From an uncultured bacterium (GTDB lineage Bacteria; Arandabacterota; Arandabacteria; Arandabacterales; Arandabacteraceae), in assembly GCA_964598025.1 (NCBI GenBank), contig CAZRAU010000002.1, positions 17,854-81,853 on the forward strand: a stretch of 64,000 nucleotides of DNA. Reading direction: 5' to 3'. This document shows positions 3,492-20,555 of the stretch, in pieces. Within the stretch, counting starts at the first letter, position 1; each line of letters begins with the position of its first letter. The position numbers were made by a program, and so were the translations under genes. The notes under the pieces were generated by a model, which saw only the letters and a list, made by a program, of their open reading frames with translations, was not told the origin of the DNA and did not search any database.

Positions 3492-5402
3492 TCATCCTTG
3501 CCGTCCGATTGTGAAGTGGAAGGTCGTGCCTTCCCCGGGCTCCGATTCCACCCAGATCCTCCCGCCATGGCGCTCGACGATCTTCTTGCAGATGGTCAGC
3601 CCTATGCCGGTGCCTGGGTACTCGTCCTTGCGGTGCAACCGCTGAAATATCACGAAGATCCGATCTCTGTACTCCGGGCCGATGCCGATACCGTTGTCCC
3701 GTACCGAAAACGACCATTGATCTCCGTCTTCCTGTGCGGAGATGTGGATTCGGGGCGCCTCCGTACCCCTGAACTTGATCCCGTTCTCGATGAGATTCTG
3801 GAATAACCGCGCGAGCTGTGATTCGTCTGCGAAGACAACGGGCAGATCATCACTGGTTATCACAGCTGAGGCCTGTCTGATAACGTTCTGCAGGCTCGCA
3901 ATCGCCCTGGCGAGCGCTGTGGCCGAATCGACCCTGTCGAATAACTTCGGTCCCGTGCTCAGCGTCGAATAGGAGAGCAAATCGCTAATCATACGTTGCA
4001 TCCTGTTGGCACCATCAACCGCAAAGCCGATGAATTCGAGGGCATCGCCATCGAGTCTGTCCCTGTAACGCCTCTCCAGCAGCTGCGTATAGCTCGAGAT
4101 CATGCGCAATGGTTCCTGCAAGTCATGCGATGCGACATAGGCAAACTGCTCCAGATCGCTGTTCGACCGCTTGAGTTCCTCGTTGTACCGTTTGACCTGC
4201 TCTTCCGCCCATCTCTTTTCGGTTATGTCCTCACCGGAACTCAACGTGCCTATGATCTCGCCGGCATCATCCTTGAGGACGGTATTATGCCACGCGATCA
4301 GACGTTCCTCGCTGGGTTTCACTATAACGGGGTTCTCATGGCGCCCAGCGCCGTCGACTTCGCCCGCAAGGAGCGCGCGGAAGAGGTCCAGGGTCCTTTT
4401 CCGACACCGTGCCGGTATGAAATCGTCAAACCAGTTTCTGCCGACAACGGCGGTTGGTTCGCGACCAAGTATCTCACAGCCCTTCTGGTTTATCATGCTG
4501 ACTTGCCCGGCGGGATCGATGGCTATCAGCATGACCCCGGCTACATCGAGATAGCGCTGGGTGCGATCTCTTTCCTGGCGCAAGGCCTTCTCGGTGAGCT
4601 TGCGGTCGGTTATGTCGCTCACTATCCCATCGAAGCAAAGAACGGTGCCTTGGTCATCCTTGTCCGGAACACCGTGGTCACTGAGCCAACGCACTTCTCC
4701 GGTCTCTTTGTGCACTACTCTGTATTCGAGCCTATACTCGCTCCCGTTGGTGCGGGCATCGGCTAGTCTGCTTAGTGTTGTTTCTGCGTCGTCCGGGTGA
4801 ATCGACTTGGACCGGGTCTGATGAAGATCACAGAGATCTTCCGGATTGTAACCCGTCCAGTCCTTCCATCGCGGCGACATGTAAGTCATGGTGCCGGTTT
4901 CGTCGGGCAGCGATGTATAGACGGCATCCGGGATATTGCGAACCAGGTTTTCGAATCTGTCTCTGGCCTCCCGAATTTCAGCCTCTGCTTGTTTGCGCTC
5001 GGTGATATCCTCAATGGCCAGGAGGATCATGCGGGCGTCATCCGGCGCCCCATAGAGCCTCCTGGCGTTTAAAGACATGATGCGGAGGCCGATCTTTGGG
5101 AAGTTGTGCCTAACCTCAAAACCGTCGAAACTGGTTTCCGCCGGGAGAATGGCCTCCAGGAGGTGTCTGAGTCTGGGGATGTCCCACTGCCCATGGCCCA
5201 GGTCATAGACACGTCTGCCGACCGTCTCCTCTTCGCCAATCTGAAAGACCCGGTAGAAACAAGGATTGGCGCAAATGACTCTCAGCCGGTCATCGAGAAC
5301 AAGCACAGGTTCACGAACAGTTGCAATGATGGTCTCGGCGATTCCTTCGATTAGCAGCATAACTCGCTCCGCCTCATGGCGTTCCAATGGAATCCGGCAC
5401 AA
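3492..5402 (-). CDS. multi-PAS sensor histidine kinase (HisKA + HATPase); first in-frame ATG at 5360 is the likelier start (track start 5402 is TTG)
   Basis: Several PAS-like segments, H-box SHDLQEPLRMISSYTQLL, C-terminal HATPase DNGIGI...GTGIGLTICKKIVERHGGRIWVESEPGEGTTF. Confidence 0.85.
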   Translation of the reverse strand: MCRIPLERHEAERVMLLIEGIAETIIATVREPVLVLDDRLRVICANPCFYRVFQIGEEETVGRRVYDLGHGQWDIPRLRHLLEAILPAETSFDGFEVRHNFPKIGLRIMSLNARRLYGAPDDARMILLAIEDITERKQAEAEIREARDRFENLVRNIPDAVYTSLPDETGTMTYMSPRWKDWTGYNPEDLCDLHQTRSKSIHPDDAETTLSRLADARTNGSEYRLEYRVVHKETGEVRWLSDHGVPDKDDQGTVLCFDGIVSDITDRKLTEKALRQERDRTQRYLDVAGVMLIAIDPAGQVSMINQKGCEILGREPTAVVGRNWFDDFIPARCRKRTLDLFRALLAGEVDGAGRHENPVIVKPSEERLIAWHNTVLKDDAGEIIGTLSSGEDITEKRWAEEQVKRYNEELKRSNSDLEQFAYVASHDLQEPLRMISSYTQLLERRYRDRLDGDALEFIGFAVDGANRMQRMISDLLSYSTLSTGPKLFDRVDSATALARAIASLQNVIRQASAVITSDDLPVVFADESQLARLFQNLIENGIKFRGTEAPRIHISAQEDGDQWSFSVRDNGIGIGPEYRDRIFVIFQRLHRKDEYPGTGIGLTICKKIVERHGGRIWVESEPGEGTTFHFTIGRQG

Positions 5403-5730: not shown

Positions 5731-6783
5731 ATGAAGGGCCATTGTGCGCTTGTGCCAGCCGCTTCGTTTGGCGGAGCTAGTGGTTTTTTCAAGCATCCGT
5801 TCGGCATGTTGAATTGCCTCTCTGCCTCACGATGGTGTATCAGAGGAGGGCGCGTGGCAGAAGCGAACCATGGTCCGGAACCGGTCAGCATCCTACTGGT
5901 TGAAGACGATCCCGGCGACGTGCGTCTCATTCGTGAGATGCTCACCGAATTACAGGCGGGCAGTTTCTCACTCACCGTGGCGGACACCATTGAGACGGCG
6001 ATTGCGACTATGGCGTCTGAGCGGCCGGAGGTGATCCTCCTCGATCTTTGCCTGCCCGACAGCCGGGGACTGGACACATTCATGCAAATCCGCGATCGCA
6101 CGGCGGACATACCGATCGTTGTTCTCACAGGCGTCAGCCAGTGGGACACGGGCATCGCGGCCGTCCAGAAGGGGGCTCAGGATTATCTGGTGAAGGGGCA
6201 GGTCGACGGGCAGTTACTGCGGCGGTCGATCCACTATGCGGTTGAGCGCTATCGCCTGATCATAGAGCTCGAACACTCCCGTGAGCGGGAGGAGAGGTTG
6301 CGGGAGCTCCGATCGCTGGACAGACTCGCCGGCCGGCCGCCGGATGACTGCGACGGTAAGCCGTGGGCGGAAGCGGTCCTGCGTAGTGCGCTCCCCCGGA
6401 AGTTTGTTTCACTCACTGAGAATCTCGGCGGATTGCTCGAAACGGCGCTGGAAGAGGACATTCACAAGTCAGAGAGGAAGGTGCCCGGTGAGATCAGGTC
6501 GATGGCCGAGGAGATCGGGCGGCTTGGCGGCGGCCCGCGCGATGTGGTCGACATTTACTATACGGCAATCCGCGAACGCATGGAAGTCAGCGATGCCGGC
6601 AAAGCAAAGGCCTATGTCCGGGAGGGCCGTCTTGTGCTGCTCGAGCTTCTAGGATACCTGGCTTCTTATTATCGGACCCTGTCTCTAGGTATAGTCACAG
6701 ACCCAAGAGGAGTCATCCGTGGGTACAGAGAGGCACCACCGGAGCCTGCGGGTGGGCGGACCGGTCGAATTGAGGGGGGCTGA
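5731..6783 (+). CDS. response-regulator receiver fused to a KaiA-like C-terminal helical domain (KaiA3-like); track ORF starts at 5719
   Basis: Receiver motifs VSILLVEDDPGD...VILLDLCLPDSRG...IVVLTG...KGAQDYLVKG. C-terminal 60 aa (DVVDIYYTAIRERMEVSDAGKAKAYVREGRLVLLELLGYLASYYR) resemble the C-terminus of cyanobacterial KaiA as I recall it (VVEIHMELMDEF...YRLTLIDVIAHLCEMYRRSIP). Position immediately upstream of kaiB-kaiC with 1-nt spacing. Confidence 0.6.
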   Translation: MKGHCALVPAASFGGASGFFKHPFGMLNCLSASRWCIRGGRVAEANHGPEPVSILLVEDDPGDVRLIREMLTELQAGSFSLTVADTIETAIATMASERPEVILLDLCLPDSRGLDTFMQIRDRTADIPIVVLTGVSQWDTGIAAVQKGAQDYLVKGQVDGQLLRRSIHYAVERYRLIIELEHSREREERLRELRSLDRLAGRPPDDCDGKPWAEAVLRSALPRKFVSLTENLGGLLETALEEDIHKSERKVPGEIRSMAEEIGRLGGGPRDVVDIYYTAIRERMEVSDAGKAKAYVREGRLVLLELLGYLASYYRTLSLGIVTDPRGVIRGYREAPPEPAGGRTGRIEGG

Positions 6784-6784
6784 T

Positions 6785-7090
6785 ATGAGAGGTTGCATCA
6801 AGTTGAAACTGTATATCTCCGGGCATACCGTCAGGTCTGACAACGCGATCAGCCATCTTCGCAGCATCTGCGAGGAAATGGTACGGGGCGGCTATGAGAT
6901 AAGGGTCATAGATGTCACGAGACACCCCGACCAGGCGGAGATCGATGGGGTCCTGGCCACGCCGACCCTGATCAAGGATTCGCCTCCGCCGGCTGCAAGG
7001 CTAATCGGGGACCTGTCCGATAGAGAGAGAGTAGTCACGGCGCTGGATCTGCGGTGTGAGCCGGCGGCACATGGCGCGAAGTCACTCTGA
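6785..7090 (+). CDS. kaiB: circadian clock protein KaiB homolog
   Basis: IKLKLYISGHT...EIRVIDVTRHPDQAEIDGVLATPTLIKDSPPPAARLIGDLSDRERVVTALDL matches the KaiB thioredoxin-like family signature (KLxLYV.G, ATPTL, IGDLS). ATG 6785 is one nt after the stop of the upstream gene. Confidence 0.9.
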   Translation: MRGCIKLKLYISGHTVRSDNAISHLRSICEEMVRGGYEIRVIDVTRHPDQAEIDGVLATPTLIKDSPPPAARLIGDLSDRERVVTALDLRCEPAAHGAKSL

Positions 7091-7112: not shown

Positions 7113-8648
7113 ATGAGAACCAAGAGACAGGGTGCCGACATCGACAGGGTGCCGACCGGTATGCCCGGCTTCGACCTGATATCCCATGGCGGCCTGCCGG
7201 CCGATAGGAGCACGCTGATCACGGGAACGCCCGGAAGCGGAAAAACCATGTTCGCAGTTCAATTCCTGGCCGAGGGGATACGAAGACACGGGCAGTCCGG
7301 CGTTTTCGTCACCTTCGAGGAATCCACGGATGATCTGCGGAAGAACTTCATCAGCCTCGGGTGGGACATCGAGAAATGGGAGAGCGAGAACAAGTGGCGT
7401 TTTGTTGATGTATCGCCGCACGCGGGGCAACGGTTGATACGAGTCGGCAAGTTCGACCTGAGCGCTCTTCTCACAAGGATCGGGAGTGCCGTGGAGCAGG
7501 TTGGCGCCAAGCGCGTGGCCCTGGATTCACTGGGCGCCATATTCACGCAGGTAACGGATCGTTCCACGCTGCGGAGCGAGATCTTCCGCATAATGTCCGT
7601 GCTGAAAGAAATGGAAGTCACGGCGGTTCTCACCGGCGAGCACGGCAGGGACGATGAGGTCATCACGAGAAGCGACATGGAGGAATTCACCGCCGACAAC
7701 GTGGTGATAACGCGGAATATTCGTGAAGATGAGCGACGGCGGAGAACCATCGAAATCCTCAAGTTCCGGGGCACAACCCACGAGAAAGGTGAACACCCCT
7801 TCACAATAATAAGGCGCCATGGTATTGTCGTGCTGCCTCTTTCGTCAATCGAGCTGAAGCAAAAATCTACGGAAATTCGCATGACCTCCGGCAACGTCAC
7901 ACTGGACGGGATGTGTGACGGGGGGTACTTCAGGGATTTCATCGTCGCCGTAAATGGGCCGACCGGGACGGGGAAGTCCCTCATGGCGACAGAGTTTGTC
8001 AAAGGCGGACTCCATGAGGGGGACAGATGTCTCTTTCTTGGCTTCGAAGAGAGCAAGGATCAGATTTTCAGGAACGCGTCTCGCTGGGGAATCGACTTCG
8101 CGGGCGCTGAATCGGCAGGATTGCTGAAGGTGTCGTGCGAGTATCCCGAGGCAATGGGGCTGGAGGACCATTCGCAAAGGCTGCGGACTCTGGTCAAGGA
8201 ATTCAAACCCAACCGCCTGGCCCTGGACAGCCTCTCGGCCCTGGAGCGGGTAGCCTCAGGCAAGGGATATAGAAAGTTCGTTGTTGGATTGACGGCATTT
8301 CTCAAGCAGAAGGGAATCGCCTCCTTGCTTACGGTCAACACTCCGGCAATAGCGGGGTCCCCGTCGATGCCGGAGGCCGAGATATCGAGTCTGGCGGATG
8401 CGATCATCCTGCTGAGGTATGTGGAGGTCCACGGTGAGATGAGGCGGGGGCTGACCGTCCTCAAGATGCGCGGTACGAGTCACGACAAGGAGATCCGCGA
8501 ATTCGCCATTGACGGGACCGGAATGCATATAGGGCAGCCGTTTCGCAATGTGAGCGGCATCCTGACGGGATACAGTCACAACGTGGTTCCGAGCGAGCTT
8601 GAACGGGTAGGTGAACTATTCGGGGAATCCAGCTCTGCCAGGAACTGA
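7113..8648 (+). CDS. kaiC: circadian clock protein KaiC homolog (double RecA-like ATPase); start 7113 preferred over track 7056, which overlaps kaiB
   Basis: Two Walker A motifs GTPGSGKT and GPTGTGKS. Catalytic EE pairs (VTFEES, LGFEES). C-terminal region AIILLRYVEVHGEMRRGLTVLKMRGTSHDKEIREF typical of KaiC. Candidate phospho-sites ISS aligned to S. elongatus IST. SD agggg before ATG 7113. Confidence 0.92.
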   Translation: MRTKRQGADIDRVPTGMPGFDLISHGGLPADRSTLITGTPGSGKTMFAVQFLAEGIRRHGQSGVFVTFEESTDDLRKNFISLGWDIEKWESENKWRFVDVSPHAGQRLIRVGKFDLSALLTRIGSAVEQVGAKRVALDSLGAIFTQVTDRSTLRSEIFRIMSVLKEMEVTAVLTGEHGRDDEVITRSDMEEFTADNVVITRNIREDERRRRTIEILKFRGTTHEKGEHPFTIIRRHGIVVLPLSSIELKQKSTEIRMTSGNVTLDGMCDGGYFRDFIVAVNGPTGTGKSLMATEFVKGGLHEGDRCLFLGFEESKDQIFRNASRWGIDFAGAESAGLLKVSCEYPEAMGLEDHSQRLRTLVKEFKPNRLALDSLSALERVASGKGYRKFVVGLTAFLKQKGIASLLTVNTPAIAGSPSMPEAEISSLADAIILLRYVEVHGEMRRGLTVLKMRGTSHDKEIREFAIDGTGMHIGQPFRNVSGILTGYSHNVVPSELERVGELFGESSSARN

Positions 8649-8675: not shown

Positions 8676-10655
8676 ATGGAAGGCGGACCAAGTTCGCGCC
8701 GGGAGGTGAAGTCACACTCGATGTTTGCCGAAACCACGCGCATTCTGCTGATCGAAGACGACCCCGGTGATTGCAGACTCATCGAGGGAATGCTCCAGGA
8801 TGCGGTCGGCCCGGGCTTCGAATTGCTCACGGCCGGAAGCCTTGCGGCTGCCATTGAACAGGTCGATGCCGGCAAGCCGGACGTCGTGCTGATGGATCTC
8901 CTCCTTCCCGACAGCGGCGCTCCCGACACGTTCACATCCTTCCGCTCCAAGGTGTCCGGTGTCCCCGTAGTCGTGCTGACAGGTCTGGACGATACCGCCG
9001 CAGCGTTGAAGGCGCTTCATGACGGTGCGCAGGACTACCTCATCAAAGGACGGATCGACGGCGGCCTTCTGGCCCGCTCGATTCGCTATGCGATAGAACG
9101 GCATCAAACCCGGAATAAGCTCGAGCATCAGTCGCTGAAACTGATGGACCGCGAGAAACGGCTGGATACCATCATAAGGGCCAGTGCCGAAGGCATCGCA
9201 ATTGTGGATCGAGATGGGATCGTTCTCTTCGTCAACCCCGCCGCGGAAGCGATCCTCGGCAGAGACGCCGCGGATGTCACAGGACGGGCGTTCGGGTTTC
9301 CCCTGGTTTCGGGGCTGCAAACCGAAGTCGATGTGATCAGCGCCGATGATAGAGTTCGCGTGGCGGAGATGAGGGTCACTGAGGTCGACTGGGACGGCTC
9401 GCGGGTGCAGCTCGTGTCGCTCAGGGACATAACCCAGCACAAAGAGATGCTCAAGGAGCTCGAGGAATCCCGGAAGCAGCAGATCCACTTGAAAGACCGG
9501 TTCTTGTCCCACGTGTCCCATGAGCTCCGGTCGCCCCTCGCGGCGGTGGACCAGTTCGTGTCCATCCTGCTTGATGAGATCCCGGGCAAGCTGAGCGAGC
9601 GGCAGCGCGAGTATCTCGGGATAGTATCGCGCAATGTCGAGCAGTTAGGTGCGATGATCAACGATCTGCTCCTGGTAACGCGGAGCATGGAGGACAGGGT
9701 GTCCATCAACCGGCGTCAGGTGGACGTGTGGAAGGTTCTGAAAGAGGCAGTGTCGACCTTCAAGGCGGCGGCGGCGGAGAAGGTCGTGAAACTGGCGGTA
9801 GATGAATCGGAGGATCTTCCCCGCGTGCTTGCGGACCCTGTCCGGATCAAGGAGGTCCTGACCAATCTAATCGATAATGCCCTCAGATTCACGCCGCCCA
9901 ATGGGACCATCACGATCGGTGCATGGGTGGATGCGCAGGACCCGGATTTCGTCCGGGTATGGGTGACGGACTCGGGAAGTGGCATTGAGGAGCAGGAGAT
10001 CGAGAAGATATTCGATCCTCTCCACCAGAGCGGAAGGGGTAATGACTCGGGCCGGCAGGGTCTCGGACTGGGGCTTTCCATCTGCAAGAGTCTGGTGATT
10101 CGGCAGGGTGGGAGAATCTGGGCGGAAAGTAGGCCCGGGCACGGGACGACCATCTCGTTCACGCTACCGGCATTCTCGCTGGCCGGCCTGCTTGTCCCGA
10201 TTCTGACGCGCGACAACCTGAAGCGCGGCGTGCTGGCAGTCGTCAAAATCCTGATGGTCTTCCGGCCCGAAGCAGGGATGGTGGAATATGTAGACCGCGC
10301 AGTTCGCGCGGCACGGGATAACTTGAACCGGTGCATCGTCGAAAACAGAGATGCCGTGCTTCCAACGGTCGGGGCTGATGACAGCCATCGGTCAACGGTC
10401 ACTGTCGCATGCACCGATCGGAGAGGCGCCGAGATCCTGGTGCGGATGGCGAGGGACCGGCTTTCCCGGGTCGACGACCTGGGACCTCCACAGGTGGAAA
10501 CAACGGTAGTGTTCGACCTGGTCGAGATACCACCGGATATAGCTGAAAGTCCGGCCGAACTGGCGGCGGCCGCCCTGGCCGATGCCATCGAGGGCCTGGT
10601 CTTCGACAGTTTCGAAAAGGAGGAATGCCAATGGCAGCAAAGACAATCCTCGTGA
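8676..10655 (+). CDS. REC-PAS-HisKA-HATPase sensor kinase with an uncharacterised ~170-aa C-terminal extension; alternative start ATG 8721
   Basis: RILLIEDDPGD...VVLMDLLLPDSG receiver, PAS, H-box SHVSHELRSPLAAVDQF, HATPase DSGSGIE...GLGLGLSICKSLVIRQGGRIWAESRPGHGTT, then a 170-aa tail without recognisable motifs. Confidence 0.8.
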   Translation: MEGGPSSRREVKSHSMFAETTRILLIEDDPGDCRLIEGMLQDAVGPGFELLTAGSLAAAIEQVDAGKPDVVLMDLLLPDSGAPDTFTSFRSKVSGVPVVVLTGLDDTAAALKALHDGAQDYLIKGRIDGGLLARSIRYAIERHQTRNKLEHQSLKLMDREKRLDTIIRASAEGIAIVDRDGIVLFVNPAAEAILGRDAADVTGRAFGFPLVSGLQTEVDVISADDRVRVAEMRVTEVDWDGSRVQLVSLRDITQHKEMLKELEESRKQQIHLKDRFLSHVSHELRSPLAAVDQFVSILLDEIPGKLSERQREYLGIVSRNVEQLGAMINDLLLVTRSMEDRVSINRRQVDVWKVLKEAVSTFKAAAAEKVVKLAVDESEDLPRVLADPVRIKEVLTNLIDNALRFTPPNGTITIGAWVDAQDPDFVRVWVTDSGSGIEEQEIEKIFDPLHQSGRGNDSGRQGLGLGLSICKSLVIRQGGRIWAESRPGHGTTISFTLPAFSLAGLLVPILTRDNLKRGVLAVVKILMVFRPEAGMVEYVDRAVRAARDNLNRCIVENRDAVLPTVGADDSHRSTVTVACTDRRGAEILVRMARDRLSRVDDLGPPQVETTVVFDLVEIPPDIAESPAELAAAALADAIEGLVFDSFEKEECQWQQRQSS

Positions 10656-11041
10656 TAGACGATGACCGAGATCTCCTGCTCGGGTTGTCGGTCAGGCTGA
10701 AGGCGGAAGGCTACGAGGTCATAACGGCGGCCGATGCGGTCGCCGCTACCGGCGCGGCCCGTAAAGGGGACCCGGACGTCATAATCCTGGACCTTGGTCT
10801 ACCCGGAGGCGACGGCTACCTGGTGATGCAGCGGCTGCGTTCGATGCTGGTGTCACTGGCGCCGATCATCGTGCTCACGGCGCGCGACCCGGCAACCGAT
10901 GAATGCAGGGCAACCCAACTGGGGGCCTTCACTTACCTCCAGAAGCCGGTCAGCAATGATAGGTTGTTGAGAGCTATCAGGCGTGCGCTTAATGAACCGG
11001 TAGAGCCGGAGAAAGACCGCCTGAGTTTGATCCCGGGCTGA
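10625..11041 (+). CDS. single-domain CheY-like response regulator
   Basis: KTILVIDDDRD...VIILDLGLPGGDG...IIVLTARD...YLQKP. Confidence 0.8.
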   Translation: MPMAAKTILVIDDDRDLLLGLSVRLKAEGYEVITAADAVAATGAARKGDPDVIILDLGLPGGDGYLVMQRLRSMLVSLAPIIVLTARDPATDECRATQLGAFTYLQKPVSNDRLLRAIRRALNEPVEPEKDRLSLIPG

Positions 11042-11153: not shown

Positions 11154-11181
11154 TTGACAATACCTGGGTCTGTGCTATGCT
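11154..11181 (+). promoter_or_regulatory. candidate sigma70-type promoter TTGACA-N16-TATGCT
   Basis: Exact -35 hexamer at 11154-11159 and TATGCT at 11176-11181 in the 425-nt intergenic region, about 290 nt upstream of the CheB-CheR ORF. Confidence 0.3.
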
Positions 11182-11467: not shown

Positions 11468-14400
11468 GTGATGGTCGCCGAGAAGAGAAAGCGAAAAGCC
11501 AAACCGACTGAGCCGGACAGACCCCGGGGGAAAGCCTGTGGGCACGGGCCCAAAGCGAAATCCTGCTCCCCAGGGACCCCATCCGATGAACCCGTCGCGA
11601 TTGTAGGCATTGGGGCGTCCGCCGGCGGGCTTGAAGCTCTTGAGGGGTTCTTCGACCACCTGCCTCCGAAGAGTGGCATAGCCTATGTGGTAATCCAGCA
11701 CCTGGCGCCGCAGCATAAGAGCGTCATGGATGCGATCTTGTCCAAACACACCGGCATGAGGATCAACAGGATCACCTCCGGTATGAAAGCCGAACCCGAC
11801 AACATATATCTCAACCAGCCGGATAAAGACGTGACGATTGTAAATGGACTTCTGTGTCTGGCCGAGCTGGAAGAACCGCACGGTATCAGGTTGCCGATTG
11901 ACCGTTTTCTGCGTTCCCTTGCCGCGGACCGGGGCGAGAAAGCCGTCTGCGTCATCCTCTCAGGTACCGGGAGTGACGGTACTCAGGGGTTGAAGGCTAT
12001 CAAGGAGACGGGCGGAATGGCAATGGTCCAGGAGAAGGAACAGGCGAGGTACGAGGGCATGCCGGCGAGTGCTCTTGCAACAGGCCTTGTGGATTTCGAG
12101 CTGCCCGTTGAGGATATGGCCGACGAGATCATGAAATTCGCATCACACACCTATGTCAGATGCCAGCAGGCGGTCACCGCCCCGGAAGAAGATATGGAGG
12201 GCTCGTTTGCAAGGATATTCTCGTTTATCCGTTCGGAAACGGGTCATGACTTCTCGGGCTACAAGAGGAAAACCACCCAACGCAGGATAGAGCGTCGGAT
12301 GGCGCTGCATGGAATCGATGCGGTGGACGCCTATGTGACTTTTCTCAGAGAGGATTCCAATGAAGTCAAGGCGCTTTACCGGGATATGCTGATCACGGTC
12401 ACGAGTTTCTTCAGGGAACCGGAGGCTTTCGAGGTTCTTGAGAAAACGGCGGTGCACGAGCTGCTAGATACGAGAGAACCGGACACGGCCCTACGGGTCT
12501 GGGTACCCGGCTGTGGTACGGGAGAGGAAGCCTATTCCATTGCGATTTTGATTGCCGAACACCTGGCGGCAAGGAAACGGCACCTTGAGGTCCAGGTATT
12601 CGCTACCGATCTGGACGATGGCTCGATCGAGTACGCGCGGGCCGGCGTCTATCCCGCCAGCATAGCTGCGGATGTCAAAGCAAAGCGACTGGAGCGATTT
12701 TTCGTGAGTGTTGATGGTTCATGGAGGATCAAGCGGCGGATTCGGGAGATGCTTGTCTTCGCCGTCCAGGACCTTATCAAAGATCCGCCCTTCTCGAATC
12801 TCGATCTAATCAGCTGCAGGAACGTGCTCATATACTTGGACGGCGCCCTCCAAAAGGAGGTACTATCACTCTTCCACTATGTGCTTCGGCCCGGCGGGTA
12901 CCTCTTCCTTGGTTCCGCCGAGACGATCGGCGGATTCGGTGACCGGTTCGAGACGGTTGACTCAAAACACAGGATATACAGACGAAAGGAAGCTATTCAC
13001 GGTGAGGTCAAGCCACACGGCGTACCGCCGTTCTTTGAGCGACGCGGCAGGTATCCCTTAACCGGTGAGCCCAGCAGCCGCAGTGCGAGCGACATCCGGG
13101 GTCTCGCACACCGAGCAATCATCGACAAGTATACTCCCCCGTGTGTGCTGATAAACGGGAGACACGAGATTCTGTACTTCCACGGTGACACGGACAAGTA
13201 CCTGGCTTCACCGGCTGGAGAAGCCAGCCTCGACATCCTGAAGATGATCCGTCCGGAGATTCGCTATAAATTGAGCGGAGCACTCCACAGTGTTTCCAAG
13301 GGCCTTGAAACCGTCGTATGTGATGATCTAACCGTAGTGCACGGATGCGAGTCGGTCAGCCTGGATCTGGTGGTCAAGCCGGTGGAGGATCTCCGCGGGG
13401 CGCCGGGTATGATGCTGGTAGTGTTTGAGGAGAGGCGCAAGCCGAAGCCGGCGCGCCGGAGAGCCGGACGATACAAAGCCGATCACCCGGAGGATTCCAG
13501 TGCGACCGCGCTGCAACAGGAGCTGGCATCGACGAAGGAGCATTTGCAGGCGGCGATCGAGGAGCTGGAAACCAGCAATGAAGAACTCAGATCGGCCAAT
13601 GAAGAGCTCCAATCGACCAATGAGGAGCTCCAGTCGACCAATGAGGAGCTGGAAACCGCCAGGGAAGAACTGCGATCCTCAAATGAAGAGCTGGAGACCG
13701 TGGCCACGGAGCGTGAGCACAAGATACAGACGTTGTCGAAAGCGCATGACGACCTCAACAATCTGCTTGCGAGCACCGACATCGGAACCATCTTCCTGGA
13801 CTTGGAACTTCGCATCAAGTTTTTCACCCCACCGACAACGGCGATCTTCAACGTGATCGAGACTGATATCGGCCGGCCGATTAGCGATATCACTACGGCG
13901 GCGAAATACGCGGGCCTCGACCGGGATGCCAGAGAGGTGCTCACGACCCTTACAAAGAAGGAGACAGAGGTTCAAACCACGGATGGGAGGTGGTTCACAG
14001 TCAAGATGCTGCCGTATCGGACGACGGACAACGTCATCAATGGCGTGGTGATCACCTTTACGGACGTCACGAGGATTAAGCGCGCGCGGGAGCACCTGGC
14101 GATAAGCAGGGTCGCGTTGGCGGCCTTTATGGAGTCGGCAACCGACGGGATGATGCTGTTCGACTCGGAGGGCAATCTCATTGAGATGAATTCCGCTGCG
14201 CTTGAGTTATTTCCACGGGGCATTCGGAAGGAAGATGTGACCGGCGAGAGTATCGCGAAGGTCCTGGGCCTTATCGGCCAAGGGGACCGAGCCGAGGATT
14301 ACTATGCAACGCTGGAGACCGGAATACCCTTCATAGATGGGGAGCGGCAGCGGCATCCGAGAATCGCGGGAAGGTACTTCTCTGCAAGGGTTTTCAGGAC

Positions 14401-14869
14401 GGGAACGGGGATCGGTGTAATACTGGCGGATGAGACCATCCAGGTTGAATTCGACAAGGCGGATAAGGCCCGCCGCTACGCCGAGCGAATCGTCGACAGC
14501 GTGCGGGAACCCATGCTTGTGCTCGACTCAGGCCTGCGAGTGATTTCGGCCAGTGCCGCGTTCTTCAGCGAGTTCGCCGCAAAGCCCCGGGAGACACTGG
14601 GCTTACAGATTCATGAGATCGGAAACGCGCTGTGGGATATACCCGAGCTGAGAGACAGGCTTGAAAAGACCCTGGCCTCAGGCCTGATTCTCAGGGACCT
14701 CGTCGTGGAGCGCGACTTGCCCGGGATCGGGAGAAGAAAGATGCTTCTCAATGGGCGTAGGCTGAAAATAGCCAAGGGTGAACCCGTAATGTTGTTGCTT
14801 ACCATCGAGAATATCTCGGAAGACGCGCCCAGCCGGGCAAACGTCACGGATACCGCGTGTGATCGGTGA
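11468..14869 (+). CDS. CheB methylesterase - CheR methyltransferase fusion protein with coiled coil and PAS domains, no kinase domain
   Basis: CheB-type VAIVGIGASAGGLEALEGFF...VVIQH. CheR-type FFREPEAFEVL...LRVWVPGCGTGEEAYSIAILI. Heptad-repeat linker. PAS-like segments to the C-terminus. Confidence 0.85.
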   Translation: MMVAEKRKRKAKPTEPDRPRGKACGHGPKAKSCSPGTPSDEPVAIVGIGASAGGLEALEGFFDHLPPKSGIAYVVIQHLAPQHKSVMDAILSKHTGMRINRITSGMKAEPDNIYLNQPDKDVTIVNGLLCLAELEEPHGIRLPIDRFLRSLAADRGEKAVCVILSGTGSDGTQGLKAIKETGGMAMVQEKEQARYEGMPASALATGLVDFELPVEDMADEIMKFASHTYVRCQQAVTAPEEDMEGSFARIFSFIRSETGHDFSGYKRKTTQRRIERRMALHGIDAVDAYVTFLREDSNEVKALYRDMLITVTSFFREPEAFEVLEKTAVHELLDTREPDTALRVWVPGCGTGEEAYSIAILIAEHLAARKRHLEVQVFATDLDDGSIEYARAGVYPASIAADVKAKRLERFFVSVDGSWRIKRRIREMLVFAVQDLIKDPPFSNLDLISCRNVLIYLDGALQKEVLSLFHYVLRPGGYLFLGSAETIGGFGDRFETVDSKHRIYRRKEAIHGEVKPHGVPPFFERRGRYPLTGEPSSRSASDIRGLAHRAIIDKYTPPCVLINGRHEILYFHGDTDKYLASPAGEASLDILKMIRPEIRYKLSGALHSVSKGLETVVCDDLTVVHGCESVSLDLVVKPVEDLRGAPGMMLVVFEERRKPKPARRRAGRYKADHPEDSSATALQQELASTKEHLQAAIEELETSNEELRSANEELQSTNEELQSTNEELETAREELRSSNEELETVATEREHKIQTLSKAHDDLNNLLASTDIGTIFLDLELRIKFFTPPTTAIFNVIETDIGRPISDITTAAKYAGLDRDAREVLTTLTKKETEVQTTDGRWFTVKMLPYRTTDNVINGVVITFTDVTRIKRAREHLAISRVALAAFMESATDGMMLFDSEGNLIEMNSAALELFPRGIRKEDVTGESIAKVLGLIGQGDRAEDYYATLETGIPFIDGERQRHPRIAGRYFSARVFRTGTGIGVILADETIQVEFDKADKARRYAERIVDSVREPMLVLDSGLRVISASAAFFSEFAAKPRETLGLQIHEIGNALWDIPELRDRLEKTLASGLILRDLVVERDLPGIGRRKMLLNGRRLKIAKGEPVMLLLTIENISEDAPSRANVTDTACDR
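13559..13699 (+). repeat. in-frame tandem repeat, 6.7 x 21 nt, encoding EEL(Q/E)(S/T)(S/T/A)N heptads inside the CheB-CheR gene
   Basis: gaggagctggaaaccagcaat / gaagaactcagatcggccaat / gaagagctccaatcgaccaat / gaggagctccagtcgaccaat ... Confidence 0.9.
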
Positions 14870-19219: not shown

Positions 19220-19631
19220 AGATGGTTCAGTCGGAAGTCTTAGGACTAAGCAGTATCCCTGGGAAGCTCAGTGGGCAGAGATCGAATTCTCACGTGCCCC
19301 TCGCTCCCGCCGATTCGTCGGGCCGGACAGTCCACCCTCTCCTCGCGGGAGCGGCCTGTTGCCCCCCGGCTATCCTGGCCTGCGAATCACTCTGTCCGTC
19401 GCCCCCGTCTCGTCAGGGAATCCGGCGCCTCTCCTTATGCACACCAGGCTCCCCGGAGACGGTACCCCCGTGGGTGTGGCAGCCGACTGGTGAAGTTGAA
19501 GACTCCCTTCTGGCGAACCTCGCCAAGGGGGTGGGGTCCCGAAGAGCACACATTCGCGGAAGCGGGCGGCGATGTCCGACCGCTCCCTATTGGGACAACG
19601 TTGGACCCCGCCCATCCCCAACCTATATGCG

Positions 19632-20555
19632 ATGGCTACACACATGAAAGTATTGATCATAGACGATAGCCCCGATGCCATGATGATCGCAAAAGCCCGG
19701 TTGGCCGGCGAAGATATCGAGATCCTGTGTGCCGACGGCGGGCGCAGCGGCCTTGCTATTGCCGAACAGGAGAAACCGGACGCGATCCTTCTGGATCTGG
19801 ACATGCCGGACATGTCGGGATTCGATGTCTGCCGGGCGCTCAAGTCCCACCTTGAGCTCAACATGATCCCTATCGTCTTCCTGTCCGGGTCAGGCAGCCC
19901 GGAGGACAAGATAAAAGGTCTCAACCTTGGGGCCGTGGACTATGTGACGAAGCCTTTTGACGCATTCGAACTCAAGGCGCGGGTCAGGGCCGTGCTGAGA
20001 ACCAAGCGTCTGCAGGATCTCCTCGTTGAGCAAGCCCGGATCGACCCGCTGACGGGGTTGCCTAACCGCCGAGCGTTCACCGAAAAGCTCGGGCAGGAGT
20101 GGGCCAGAGTGAACCGGCACCAGGTGGCGATGTCTTTAATCATGGCCGACATCGACACCTTCAAAGCTCTGAACGATACCTACGGCCACCAGGTGGGCGA
20201 CGAAGTCTTGCAGGAAGTTGCAGCCAGGATCCGGCAGTCATGCCGGGTCAATGACATGTCCGCACGGTACGGTGGCGAGGAGTTTGTTATTGTCGCCCCC
20301 GACACAGTCGCGGTGGGGGCTTTCCGGCTCGCCGAGAGGTGCCGCCGTGCTGTGGAAGGCATCCGCCTGAAGGTTGACGGCTCGACGGTGTGTCCCACGG
20401 CAAGCTTCGGTGTCGCCGACGCGGACCAGGCGGATTCACCGGAGGCGTTGATCAGGCTGGCCGATGACGCCCTTTATCGGGCGAAAGCCGCGGGTCGTAA
20501 TCGTGTGGAATGTTCCGGTCCTGTACCCCACGAGGCACATGCCGAAGCCCTATAG
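19632..20555 (+). CDS. response regulator with GGDEF diguanylate cyclase output (REC-GGDEF); track start 19572
   Basis: MKVLIIDDSPD...AILLDLDMPDMSG receiver. RYGGEEFVIV active-site motif and RxxD-like region. Confidence 0.85.
   Translation: MATHMKVLIIDDSPDAMMIAKARLAGEDIEILCADGGRSGLAIAEQEKPDAILLDLDMPDMSGFDVCRALKSHLELNMIPIVFLSGSGSPEDKIKGLNLGAVDYVTKPFDAFELKARVRAVLRTKRLQDLLVEQARIDPLTGLPNRRAFTEKLGQEWARVNRHQVAMSLIMADIDTFKALNDTYGHQVGDEVLQEVAARIRQSCRVNDMSARYGGEEFVIVAPDTVAVGAFRLAERCRRAVEGIRLKVDGSTVCPTASFGVADADQADSPEALIRLADDALYRAKAAGRNRVECSGPVPHEAHAEAL

What the first reader, a model, noticed from the sequence alone, without database searches (positions are those of the whole stretch)
8676..11041. Candidate Kai output pair: REC-PAS-HK with novel C-terminal domain plus stand-alone receiver directly downstream of kaiC
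- Position: these two genes follow kaiC on the same strand with short or overlapping spacers (30-nt overlap between the HK gene and the CheY-like gene). This mirrors how SasA/CikA-type kinases and RpaA-type regulators read out KaiC state.
- Novel domain: the HK has an N-terminal receiver and about 170 residues after the HATPase domain (LAGLLVPILTRDNLKRG...VFDLVEIPPDIAESP...) with no motif I can assign.
- Hypothesis: this tail could be a KaiB/KaiC docking or pseudo-receiver module.
Basis: inference. Interest (0 to 1): 0.55.

Follow-up and report, generated by a model that had tools for sequence, protein, structure and literature searches.

The report
Kai-linked kinase with degenerate GGDEF tail
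Directly after the clock-type genes kaiB and kaiC sits a real sensor kinase plus its small partner protein; the same pair follows kai genes in other uncultured bacteria, and the kinase's unexplained tail is a worn-out copy of a common signalling domain, not a clock-docking module.

Summary
On the + strand the order is a REC-plus-helical gene, kaiB, kaiC, a REC-PAS-HisKA-HATPase_c kinase with about 160 extra C-terminal residues, then a stand-alone receiver that overlaps the kinase gene by 25-31 nt.

- **The family.** The tail defines a small unannotated family of about 630 clusters. It always sits directly after the kinase core and is almost always paired with an orthologous single-domain receiver.
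- **Link to Kai.** The kinase-plus-receiver module follows one of three things: kaiB-kaiC, kaiC-kaiB with an extended KaiC, or a sensor kinase plus receiver(s). About 12 of about 28 informative distinct loci are Kai-linked. Kai-linked tails are interspersed with non-Kai tails in a tree.

I read the pair as a portable transmitter that takes its input from KaiBC here, probably through the PAS domain. The tail is a general accessory of the kinase core. kaiBC-kinase-receiver operons are already known in Rhodopseudomonas, Rhodobacter and Pseudomonas, so this is a new variant of a known kind.

The parts
5854..6783 (+). Gene in the 'kaiA position': a receiver domain with an intact Asp plus a roughly 180-aa all-helical C-terminal region (P0266, 309 aa). 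It probably belongs to the same operon.
   Evidence: Response_reg 2e-20. The receiver is 47% identical to the kinase's own N-terminal receiver. Only 3 homologous clusters were found, and both that could be looked up lie directly upstream of kaiB-kaiC. No similarity to KaiA was detectable. The AF2 model has pLDDT 48.
6785..7090 (+). kaiB
   Evidence: PF07689 KaiB 1.8e-23; NF006798 5.7e-25
7113..8648 (+). kaiC. It has two domains, Walker A and the catalytic EE pair in both halves, Ser-Ser at the S431/T432 positions, and no long C-terminal extension.
   Evidence: NF006799 645.5 bits against a cutoff of 408; alignment A5
8676..10655 (+). Histidine kinase gene, REC-PAS-HisKA-HATPase_c-tail. The likely true start is the ATG at 8721 (644 aa).
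8742..9050 (+). N-terminal receiver domain of the kinase. The acidic pair, Asp, Thr and Lys are all present.
   Evidence: Pfam Response_reg 9.3e-15; alignment with CheY
9159..9434 (+). PAS domain. This is the candidate Kai-sensing domain, and that role is inferred.
   Evidence: PF00989, PF13426 and related models. PAS was confirmed by Pfam or a PAS seed in every Kai-linked lineage tested.
9492..10172 (+). Kinase core: HisKA with the SHELRSPL H-box, and HATPase_c
   Evidence: PF00512 3.2e-15, PF02518 2.3e-28
10173..10652 (+). C-terminal tail: a degenerate GGDEF-like domain with no GG(D/E)EF motif and no RxxD site
10625..11041 (+). Stand-alone receiver (CheY-like) that overlaps the end of the kinase gene. 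The likely start is the ATG at 10631, after a GGAGG.
   Evidence: Response_reg 3.7e-24. Orthologues at 42-68% identity lie next to nearly every tail-bearing kinase gene.
11154..11181 (+). Sigma-70-like promoter match inside the 426-nt gap after the receiver gene. It is the probable boundary of the kai transcription unit.
   Evidence: 10 of 12 hexamer matches. This is a consensus match only.

Best explanation
The kinase and the small receiver form a cognate, translationally coupled two-component pair. They are co-transcribed with kaiB-kaiC and carry the state of the KaiBC timer onward.

**Shown**
- The kinase core has all catalytic motifs, and all receivers keep their phospho-acceptor residues.
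- The 'kinase core + tail + single-domain receiver' unit is conserved as a block.
- Across uncultured bacteria this block sits downstream of one of three interchangeable modules: kaiB-kaiC, kaiC-kaiB with an extended KaiC, or a sensor kinase with one or two receivers.
- The tail is a GGDEF-derived domain that has lost the cyclase motif and the inhibitory site. It is fused immediately after the ATP-binding domain in every member examined.

**Inferred**
- KaiBC occupies the input slot that a sensor kinase fills elsewhere.
- KaiC or KaiB is read through the PAS domain. This rests on analogy with the Pseudomonas KaiC-kinase PAS interaction and with KidA PAS domains binding KaiB.
- The N-terminal receiver adds a second, phosphorylation-dependent input.
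- The phosphoryl group goes to the stand-alone receiver. That receiver has no output domain, so it must act by protein-protein contact or as a phosphate shuttle or sink.
- The tail is a general accessory of the kinase core. It may regulate the kinase, help it dimerise or dock its partner. It is not a Kai-specific adaptor.
For: **Operon.**
- Spacers are 27-72 nt and the kinase and receiver genes overlap by 25-31 nt. No terminator-like site lies between them.
- A promoter-like site appears only after the receiver gene.

**Conserved synteny with kai.**
- Type A loci share the window's gene order. L001 has KaiC 57% and kinase 44% identical to the window's. L010/L011 show 58% and 44%. L012 shows 55% and 49%.
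- Type B loci run kaiC-kaiB-PAS-kinase-tail-receiver. They are L031/33/38/49, L041/46/47/55 and L058/59.

**Interchangeable upstream module.** The following loci have a sensor kinase plus receiver, or tandem receivers, in place of kai:
- L004-6, L014/15, L021, L027, L029, L036, L039, L042, L054, L057
- L002/3/22/23/35

**Cognate receiver.** An orthologue at 42-68% identity lies next to the kinase-tail gene in nearly all loci with enough sequence. It usually overlaps by 4-30 nt.

**Active parts.** The H-box and HATPase_c domain score strongly. Asp, Thr and Lys are conserved in the receivers. KaiC keeps Walker A, the EE pair and the Ser-Ser phosphosites.

**Tail.**
- The family profile hits a GGDEF domain at E=0.0045.
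- The tail follows HATPase_c directly in 10 of 10 diverse architectures.

**Precedents.**
- A kaiC-B-PAS/HK operon is reported in R. palustris and R. sphaeroides (PMC4794148).
- Pseudomonas KaiC binds the adjacent kinase through its PAS domain, and also binds a single-domain receiver (bioRxiv 10.1101/2022.01.26.477890).
- KidA PAS domains bind KaiB (PMC9478674, abstract).
Against: - No interaction or phosphotransfer was tested. The direction of signalling, output versus input, is inferred only from module swapping.
- The PAS domain of type A kinases resembles non-Kai PAS domains more than it resembles type B PAS domains. A phmmer seed from the window found the former but not the latter. There is therefore no shared Kai-specific PAS subfamily.
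- A non-Kai locus (L014) has exactly the same REC-PAS-kinase-tail architecture.
- The window is a dense signalling island with at least 10 kinases in 31 kb. Adjacency in this window alone would mean little.
- The window's tail departs from the family at several highly conserved positions: E73 to R, F75 to T, R92 to M, I93 to A.
- Foldseek against the PDB gave only weak, mixed ferredoxin-like hits. The top hit was PelD, a degenerate GGDEF protein, at E=2.4e-4 with TM 0.34.
Confidence: 0.55

Rival explanations
1. The kinase is an input to the clock, not an output. It senses redox or another cue through PAS and phosphorylates the receiver-containing protein in the 'kaiA position' (5854-6783). That protein then modulates KaiC in the way KaiA3 does.
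For: - The upstream protein has an intact acceptor Asp. Its receiver is 47% identical to the kinase's own N-terminal receiver.
- Its few homologues always sit upstream of kaiB-kaiC followed by a kinase.
- The KaiA3 paper states that a cognate kinase for KaiA3 has not been identified (PMC11372060).
- The R. sphaeroides kinase in the kaiBC operon was proposed to carry a redox signal to KaiBC (PMC5520375).
Against: - The upstream receiver protein is absent from every other tail-kinase locus. The stand-alone downstream receiver is nearly universal.
- No similarity to KaiA could be shown.
- Where kai is absent, a sensor kinase fills that slot, which points to kai acting upstream of the module.
Confidence: 0.2
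2. The pair is an ordinary two-component system that merely lies next to kaiBC in a signalling-gene island, with no functional connection.
For: - The first 31 kb of the window hold at least 10 kinase or receiver genes.
- About half of the family's loci have no kai genes nearby.
Against: - The same gene order is kept with kinases only 43-44% identical overall.
- Linkage to a second, distinct class of KaiC arose as well.
- Spacers are very short or overlapping, for example kaiC and the kinase gene overlap in L010.
Confidence: 0.1
3. The C-terminal tail is the module that docks onto KaiB or KaiC, playing the role that the pseudo-receiver plays in CikA.
For: - The tail sits after the ATP-binding domain, where CikA carries its KaiB-binding pseudo-receiver. 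This point rests on established knowledge of CikA.
- The tail is present in all Kai-linked kinases of both types.
Against: - The fold is GGDEF-like, not a receiver fold.
- The tail is equally present where kai is replaced by a sensor kinase.
- Kai-linked tails do not form a clade.
Confidence: 0.07
4. The degenerate GGDEF tail is a nucleotide sensor, for GTP, c-di-GMP or a related messenger, that gates kinase activity. In this way second-messenger levels would be combined with Kai timing.
For: - Degenerate GGDEF domains that act as nucleotide receptors exist. The best Foldseek hit is one of them, PelD.
- The family keeps a partial G-E-x-F remnant: G 47%, E 71%, F 78%.
- A canonical REC-GGDEF cyclase lies 9 kb downstream at 19572-20555.
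Against: - There is no RxxD site, and the fourth motif residue is not conserved.
- The window's own tail has lost even the remnant; it reads H-R-S-T there.
- The hairpin loop varies in length across the family.
Confidence: 0.1

Closest known systems
kaiC-kaiB-PAS/histidine-kinase operons of Rhodopseudomonas palustris and Rhodobacter sphaeroides (PMC4794148; PMC5520375)
   Same: A PAS-containing histidine kinase is encoded in one predicted operon with kaiB and kaiC outside cyanobacteria. The type B loci found here (kaiC-kaiB-PAS-kinase-tail-receiver, with an extended KaiC) have the same gene order.
   Different: The window has the order kaiB-kaiC, and its KaiC has no C-terminal extension. It also has an extra N-terminal receiver on the kinase, an extra gene in the kaiA position and a dedicated stand-alone receiver. 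I could not test whether the proteobacterial kinases carry the GGDEF-like tail.
Pseudomonas KaiC-like / histidine kinase / single-domain response regulator clusters (bioRxiv 10.1101/2022.01.26.477890)
   Same: KaiC lies next to a kinase and a receiver-only response regulator. In that system KaiC binds the kinase through its PAS domain and also binds the receiver. The proposed role is a KaiC-modulated phosphotransfer network.
   Different: Those clusters lack kaiB in the described minimal network. No C-terminal GGDEF-like domain is reported for those kinases, and the word GGDEF does not occur in that paper.
SasA-RpaA and CikA output pathway of Synechococcus elongatus
   Same: HisKA-type kinases whose activity is set by the state of KaiC or KaiB and is passed to a response regulator.
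   Different: SasA has an N-terminal KaiB-like domain, CikA has GAF plus a C-terminal pseudo-receiver, and RpaA is a DNA-binding OmpR-type regulator. None of these features is present here. The NCBIfam SasA-type model NF006800 scores 173 bits against a cutoff of 342.
GGDEF diguanylate cyclase domain (PF00990) and its degenerate receptor forms such as PelD
   Different: There is no GG(D/E)EF motif, no RxxD site and no Pfam hit. The domain sits directly after a histidine-kinase ATP-binding domain rather than after a sensor or stalk helix.
KaiA3 of Synechocystis (PMC11372060), for the upstream gene only
   Same: A receiver domain with an intact Asp plus a helical C-terminal half, of similar size (309 aa against 299 aa), directly upstream of kaiB-kaiC.
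   Different: No detectable similarity to the KaiA C-terminal domain: no Pfam hit, and hhalign probability 1.2%. The structure model was too poor to compare.

Membership tests
SasA-type clock output kinase | N-terminal KaiB-like (thioredoxin-fold) domain that binds KaiC | tested here: not met
   The N-terminus is a canonical receiver (PF00072). No KaiB-domain hit occurs in the kinase. NF006800 covers only residues 258-501, at 173 bits against a cutoff of 342.
CikA-type clock kinase/phosphatase | C-terminal pseudo-receiver lacking the acceptor Asp, which binds fold-switched KaiB | tested here: not met
   The C-terminal domain is GGDEF-like, not a receiver fold. The only receiver in the protein is N-terminal and keeps Asp, Thr and Lys.
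RpaA-type (OmpR family) clock response regulator | Receiver plus winged-helix DNA-binding domain | tested here: not met
   The 136-138-aa protein is a receiver only. The RpaB model scores 75 bits against a cutoff of 330, over the receiver part only.
GGDEF diguanylate cyclase (PF00990) | GGDEF fold | tested here: met
GGDEF diguanylate cyclase (PF00990) | GG(D/E)EF active-site motif and a score above the Pfam gathering threshold | tested here: not met
   No Pfam hit for the window's tail. One of 43 members hits at E=0.08. The window reads H-R-S-T-V at the motif position, and the family consensus is x-G-E-x-F.
GGDEF diguanylate cyclase (PF00990) | RxxD inhibitory or c-di-GMP-binding site five residues before the motif | tested here: not met
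   The equivalent positions read E-N-R-D in the window and P-D-x-D in the family consensus.
Non-cyanobacterial kaiBC-kinase(-receiver) operon | HisKA kinase with PAS, encoded on the same strand directly after the kai genes, conserved across lineages | tested here: met
   Found in the window and in L001, L010/11 and L012 (type A), and in L031, L041 and L058 (type B).
Non-cyanobacterial kaiBC-kinase(-receiver) operon | Physical interaction of KaiC or KaiB with the kinase | not testable with these tools
   This needs two-hybrid or pull-down assays, or a complex prediction.
KaiA3 (upstream gene 5854-6783) | Receiver domain with acceptor Asp, encoded directly upstream of kaiB-kaiC | tested here: met
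KaiA3 (upstream gene 5854-6783) | KaiA-like four-helix C-terminal motif | tested here: inconclusive
   No Pfam KaiA hit. hhalign against three cyanobacterial KaiA C-terminal domains gives probability 1.2%. The AF2 model is all-helical but has pLDDT 48.

The most novel reading that the evidence does not exclude
The 'kinase core + degenerate-GGDEF tail + CheY-like receiver' unit is a previously undescribed, portable transmitter cassette. It has been wired repeatedly to two different classes of KaiBC timers as well as to conventional sensor kinases. On this reading the tail is the element that makes the cassette portable. It might dock the single-domain receiver, or it might sense a nucleotide messenger, so that Kai timing and second-messenger state are combined at a single kinase.
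Probability: 0.15. Interest if true: 0.7.

Novelty: new variant of a known kind. Interest (0 to 1): 0.45.

Why it matters
How KaiBC timers outside cyanobacteria pass on their state is largely unknown. Only gene neighbourhoods and one Pseudomonas interaction study exist.

This locus and its relatives give a defined, recurring candidate output pair. They also offer a natural comparison: the same cassette is driven by KaiBC in some loci and by a sensor kinase in others.

The work also identifies an unannotated domain family of about 630 clusters, fused to histidine-kinase cores, that descends from GGDEF. The window's kai cluster further carries a rare receiver-plus-helical gene in the kaiA position. 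That gene may be relevant to the question of KaiA-like functions outside cyanobacteria.

Tried and rejected
- **Pseudo-receiver idea for the tail.** Rejected by fold.
- **Active diguanylate cyclase.** Rejected: motif and I-site are absent.
- **Genome scan with the 43-sequence tail alignment.** It failed because no stretch was conserved enough.
- **Genome scan with the single KaiC protein.** As a result I got no organism-level census and could not test the R. palustris or R. sphaeroides kinases.
- **Third homologue search, with a mixed tail alignment.** It returned only two fragments.
- **tblastn of a type B tail against plasmids.** No match.
- **AFDB fold library.** Not available.
- **hhalign of the tail profile against the window's own canonical GGDEF domain.** Low probability (1.4%), although the alignment register was consistent.
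- **KaiA similarity of the upstream protein.** Negative or inconclusive.
- **Source record of the window.** Not retrievable.
- **Cluster look-up for organism names.** Mostly uninformative.
- **Rfam and tRNA scans of the window.** Empty.
Full report
**1.

The + strand carries five genes in a row:
- 5719/5854-6783, a receiver plus an unassigned C-terminal half
- 6785-7090, kaiB
- 7113-8648, kaiC
- 8676/8721-10655, a kinase
- 10625/10631-11041, a stand-alone receiver

Pfam and NCBIfam confirm KaiB (1.8e-23) and KaiC (NF006799, 645 bits against a cutoff of 408). In the kinase they find Response_reg (residues 23-125), PAS (162-253), HisKA (273-336) and HATPase_c (387-499). The last gene is a receiver-only protein.

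Spacing is tight. The kaiC stop lies 27 nt before the first ATG of the kinase gene, or 72 nt before the Met16 start that public gene callers use (P0001, 644 aa). The receiver gene starts inside the end of the kinase gene. Its ATG at 10631 sits 7 nt after a GGAGG, which gives a 25-nt overlap; the ATG at 10625 gives 31 nt. No terminator-like site lies between kaiC, the kinase and the receiver. The only good sigma-70-like match lies in the 426-nt gap after the receiver gene.

**2. What the tail is**

Residues 500-659 match nothing in Pfam even at E<=10, nothing in NCBIfam, and nothing meaningful among PDB sequences. The tail is nevertheless conserved. It aligns in more than 90 of the 120 best homologues of the kinase. 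These fall into two architectures: REC-PAS-kinase-tail of about 640 aa and REC-kinase-tail of about 525 aa.

At the position of GG(D/E)EF the family consensus reads x-G-E-x-F, with G in 47%, E in 71% and F in 78% of 255 near-complete tails. The window's protein reads H-R-S-T-V there. The RxxD site is absent from both. The tail is therefore a GGDEF-derived domain that cannot be a cyclase, and it is not a pseudo-receiver.

**3. The family**

A full scan of 1.84 billion representative proteins finds 630 clusters at E<=1e-3, of which 77 reach E<=1e-30. In ten members with very different N-terminal sensors, the tail begins within a few residues of the end of HATPase_c. The sensors include CBS-GAF-PAS, multi-PAS and REC-HD-MASE1-PAS. 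A few proteins carry a second kinase core after the tail. The tail is thus an accessory of the kinase core rather than of any particular sensor.

**4. Genomic context**

I collected 59 loci by exact-protein look-ups and one metagenome scan. I classified every ORF with seeds taken from the window plus the tail profile.

*The partner receiver.* An orthologue of the stand-alone receiver (42-68% identical) lies next to the kinase-tail gene in essentially every locus that has enough sequence. It is usually downstream with a 4-30 nt overlap. In one clade it lies upstream as a tandem receiver pair.

*The upstream module.* Three kinds occur.
- **Type A, kaiB-kaiC:** the window, L001, L010/L011/L020 and L012. 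Kinases are 44-49% identical to the window's in the local tblastn alignment (43-44%) and KaiC proteins 55-58% identical.
- **Type B, kaiC-kaiB:** KaiC is 581-619 aa, and in L031 and L041 I saw a coiled-coil-like C-terminal extension. It is followed by PAS-kinase-tail without an N-terminal receiver. These are L031/33/38/49, L041/46/47/55 and L058/59.
- **Type C, no kai genes:** a sensor kinase plus a receiver (L004-6, L014/15, L021, L027, L029, L036, L039, L042, L054, L057), or tandem receivers (L002/3/22/23/35).

Counting distinct loci with enough upstream sequence, about 12 of about 28 are Kai-linked. A neighbour-joining tree of the tails mixes Kai-linked and non-Kai members. For example, L010 groups with L014, and the window, L001 and L012 group near L004.

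**5. Reading**

The constant block is kinase core, tail and receiver. The variable part is what lies upstream, and KaiBC occupies the slot that a sensor kinase holds elsewhere.

The argument does not support the tail as the Kai adaptor, because the tail is equally present without kai genes. A PAS domain was confirmed in every Kai-linked lineage I tested and is missing from most type C kinases. In Pseudomonas, KaiC binds its neighbouring kinase through the PAS domain (bioRxiv 10.1101/2022.01.26.477890), and KidA PAS domains bind KaiB (PMC9478674). On that basis PAS is my preferred contact point. The caveat is that type A PAS domains resemble non-Kai ones more than they resemble type B ones.

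All parts look active:
- the H-box and HATPase_c domain score strongly;
- all three receivers keep the acidic pair, Asp, Thr and Lys;
- KaiC keeps Walker A and the EE pair in both halves and has Ser-Ser at the phosphosites.

**6. Relation to what is known**

Operons of the form kaiC-B-PAS/HK are described for R. palustris and R. sphaeroides (PMC4794148). For R. sphaeroides the kinase was suggested as a redox input (PMC5520375). A KaiC gene followed by a kinase is also noted in Ramlibacter (PMC11847603). A KaiC-kinase-receiver minimal network is described in Pseudomonas.

The general idea is therefore not new. Three things are:
- the defined kinase family with a degenerate GGDEF tail;
- its fixed CheY-like partner;
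- its alternation between two KaiBC classes and sensor kinases.

The pair is not SasA, CikA or RpaA; the defining features of each were tested and not met.

**7. The upstream gene**

The product of 5854-6783 has a receiver that is 47% identical to the kinase's own N-terminal receiver. It also has an all-helical C-terminal half. Only three other clusters exist among 5.8 billion proteins. The two I could look up lie directly upstream of kaiB-kaiC followed by a PAS-kinase-receiver hybrid.

In position and architecture this matches KaiA3 (PMC11372060). However, I found no similarity to KaiA, and the structure model is unreliable (pLDDT 48). The gene keeps alive the rival reading that the kinase feeds phosphate into a KaiA-like modulator.

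**8. Limits**

- No interaction, transcription or phosphotransfer was measured.
- The organism is unknown.
- The genome-level census failed, so the enrichment rests on about 28 metagenomic loci that are partly related to one another.
- I could not check whether the proteobacterial model kinases carry the tail.

Noticed in passing
window 5854-6783 (+): A receiver with an intact Asp plus an all-helical C-terminal half of about 180 aa sits in the 'kaiA position' directly upstream of kaiB-kaiC. The family is very rare: three other clusters, and both that could be looked up are also upstream of kaiB-kaiC-kinase. It resembles KaiA3 in position and architecture, but no similarity to KaiA was detectable.
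   Followed up: partly
L012 4086-5951: kaiB and kaiC lie in one reading frame with no stop codon between them, and the gene caller gives a 622-aa KaiB+KaiC product. This is either a natural KaiB-KaiC fusion or an assembly error. The closest relative, L001, has separate genes.
   Followed up: partly
window 1-31300: A dense signalling island. It holds a GAF-HisKA_2 kinase, a REC-PAS-kinase-REC, a triple-PAS kinase on the minus strand divergent from the kai cluster (3492-5402), and a CheB-CheR-PAS fusion (11468-14869). It also holds a PAS protein, a PAS-GAF-kinase-REC, a GAF-kinase-REC, a PAS kinase and a CHASE-PAS-kinase-REC-Hpt.
   Followed up: partly
window 19572-20555 (+): A canonical REC-GGDEF response regulator (GGDEF 1e-49) lies 9 kb downstream of the kai cluster. 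It is a possible c-di-GMP output in the same island and a useful contrast to the degenerate tail.
   Followed up: partly
L031 1420-3261; L041 1449-3305: The KaiC proteins of these kaiC-kaiB-type loci (L031 and L041) are 614-619 aa. They carry a charged, coiled-coil-like C-terminal extension of about 90 aa, reminiscent of the extended C-terminus described for Rhodobacter KaiC.
   Followed up: no
P0022, P0091, P0137, P0207 (family members, not in the window): Some members carry a second HisKA-HATPase core after the tail (kinase-tail-kinase). In these proteins the tail is internal rather than C-terminal.
   Followed up: no
L001 4845-6089; L010 1021-1743; L012 3494-4075: In the other kaiB-kaiC-type loci the gene just upstream of kaiB is a small sensor-like protein: PAS-GAF (414 aa), PAS (240 aa), or an unassigned 193-aa protein. 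A variable 'kaiA-position' gene may be a general feature of these clusters.
   Followed up: no
window 10173-10652: The window's tail departs from its own family at several of the most conserved positions: E73 to R, F75 to T, R92 to M, I93 to A. R92 is conserved in 91% of members. It is a divergent member, and I have no explanation for this.
   Followed up: no
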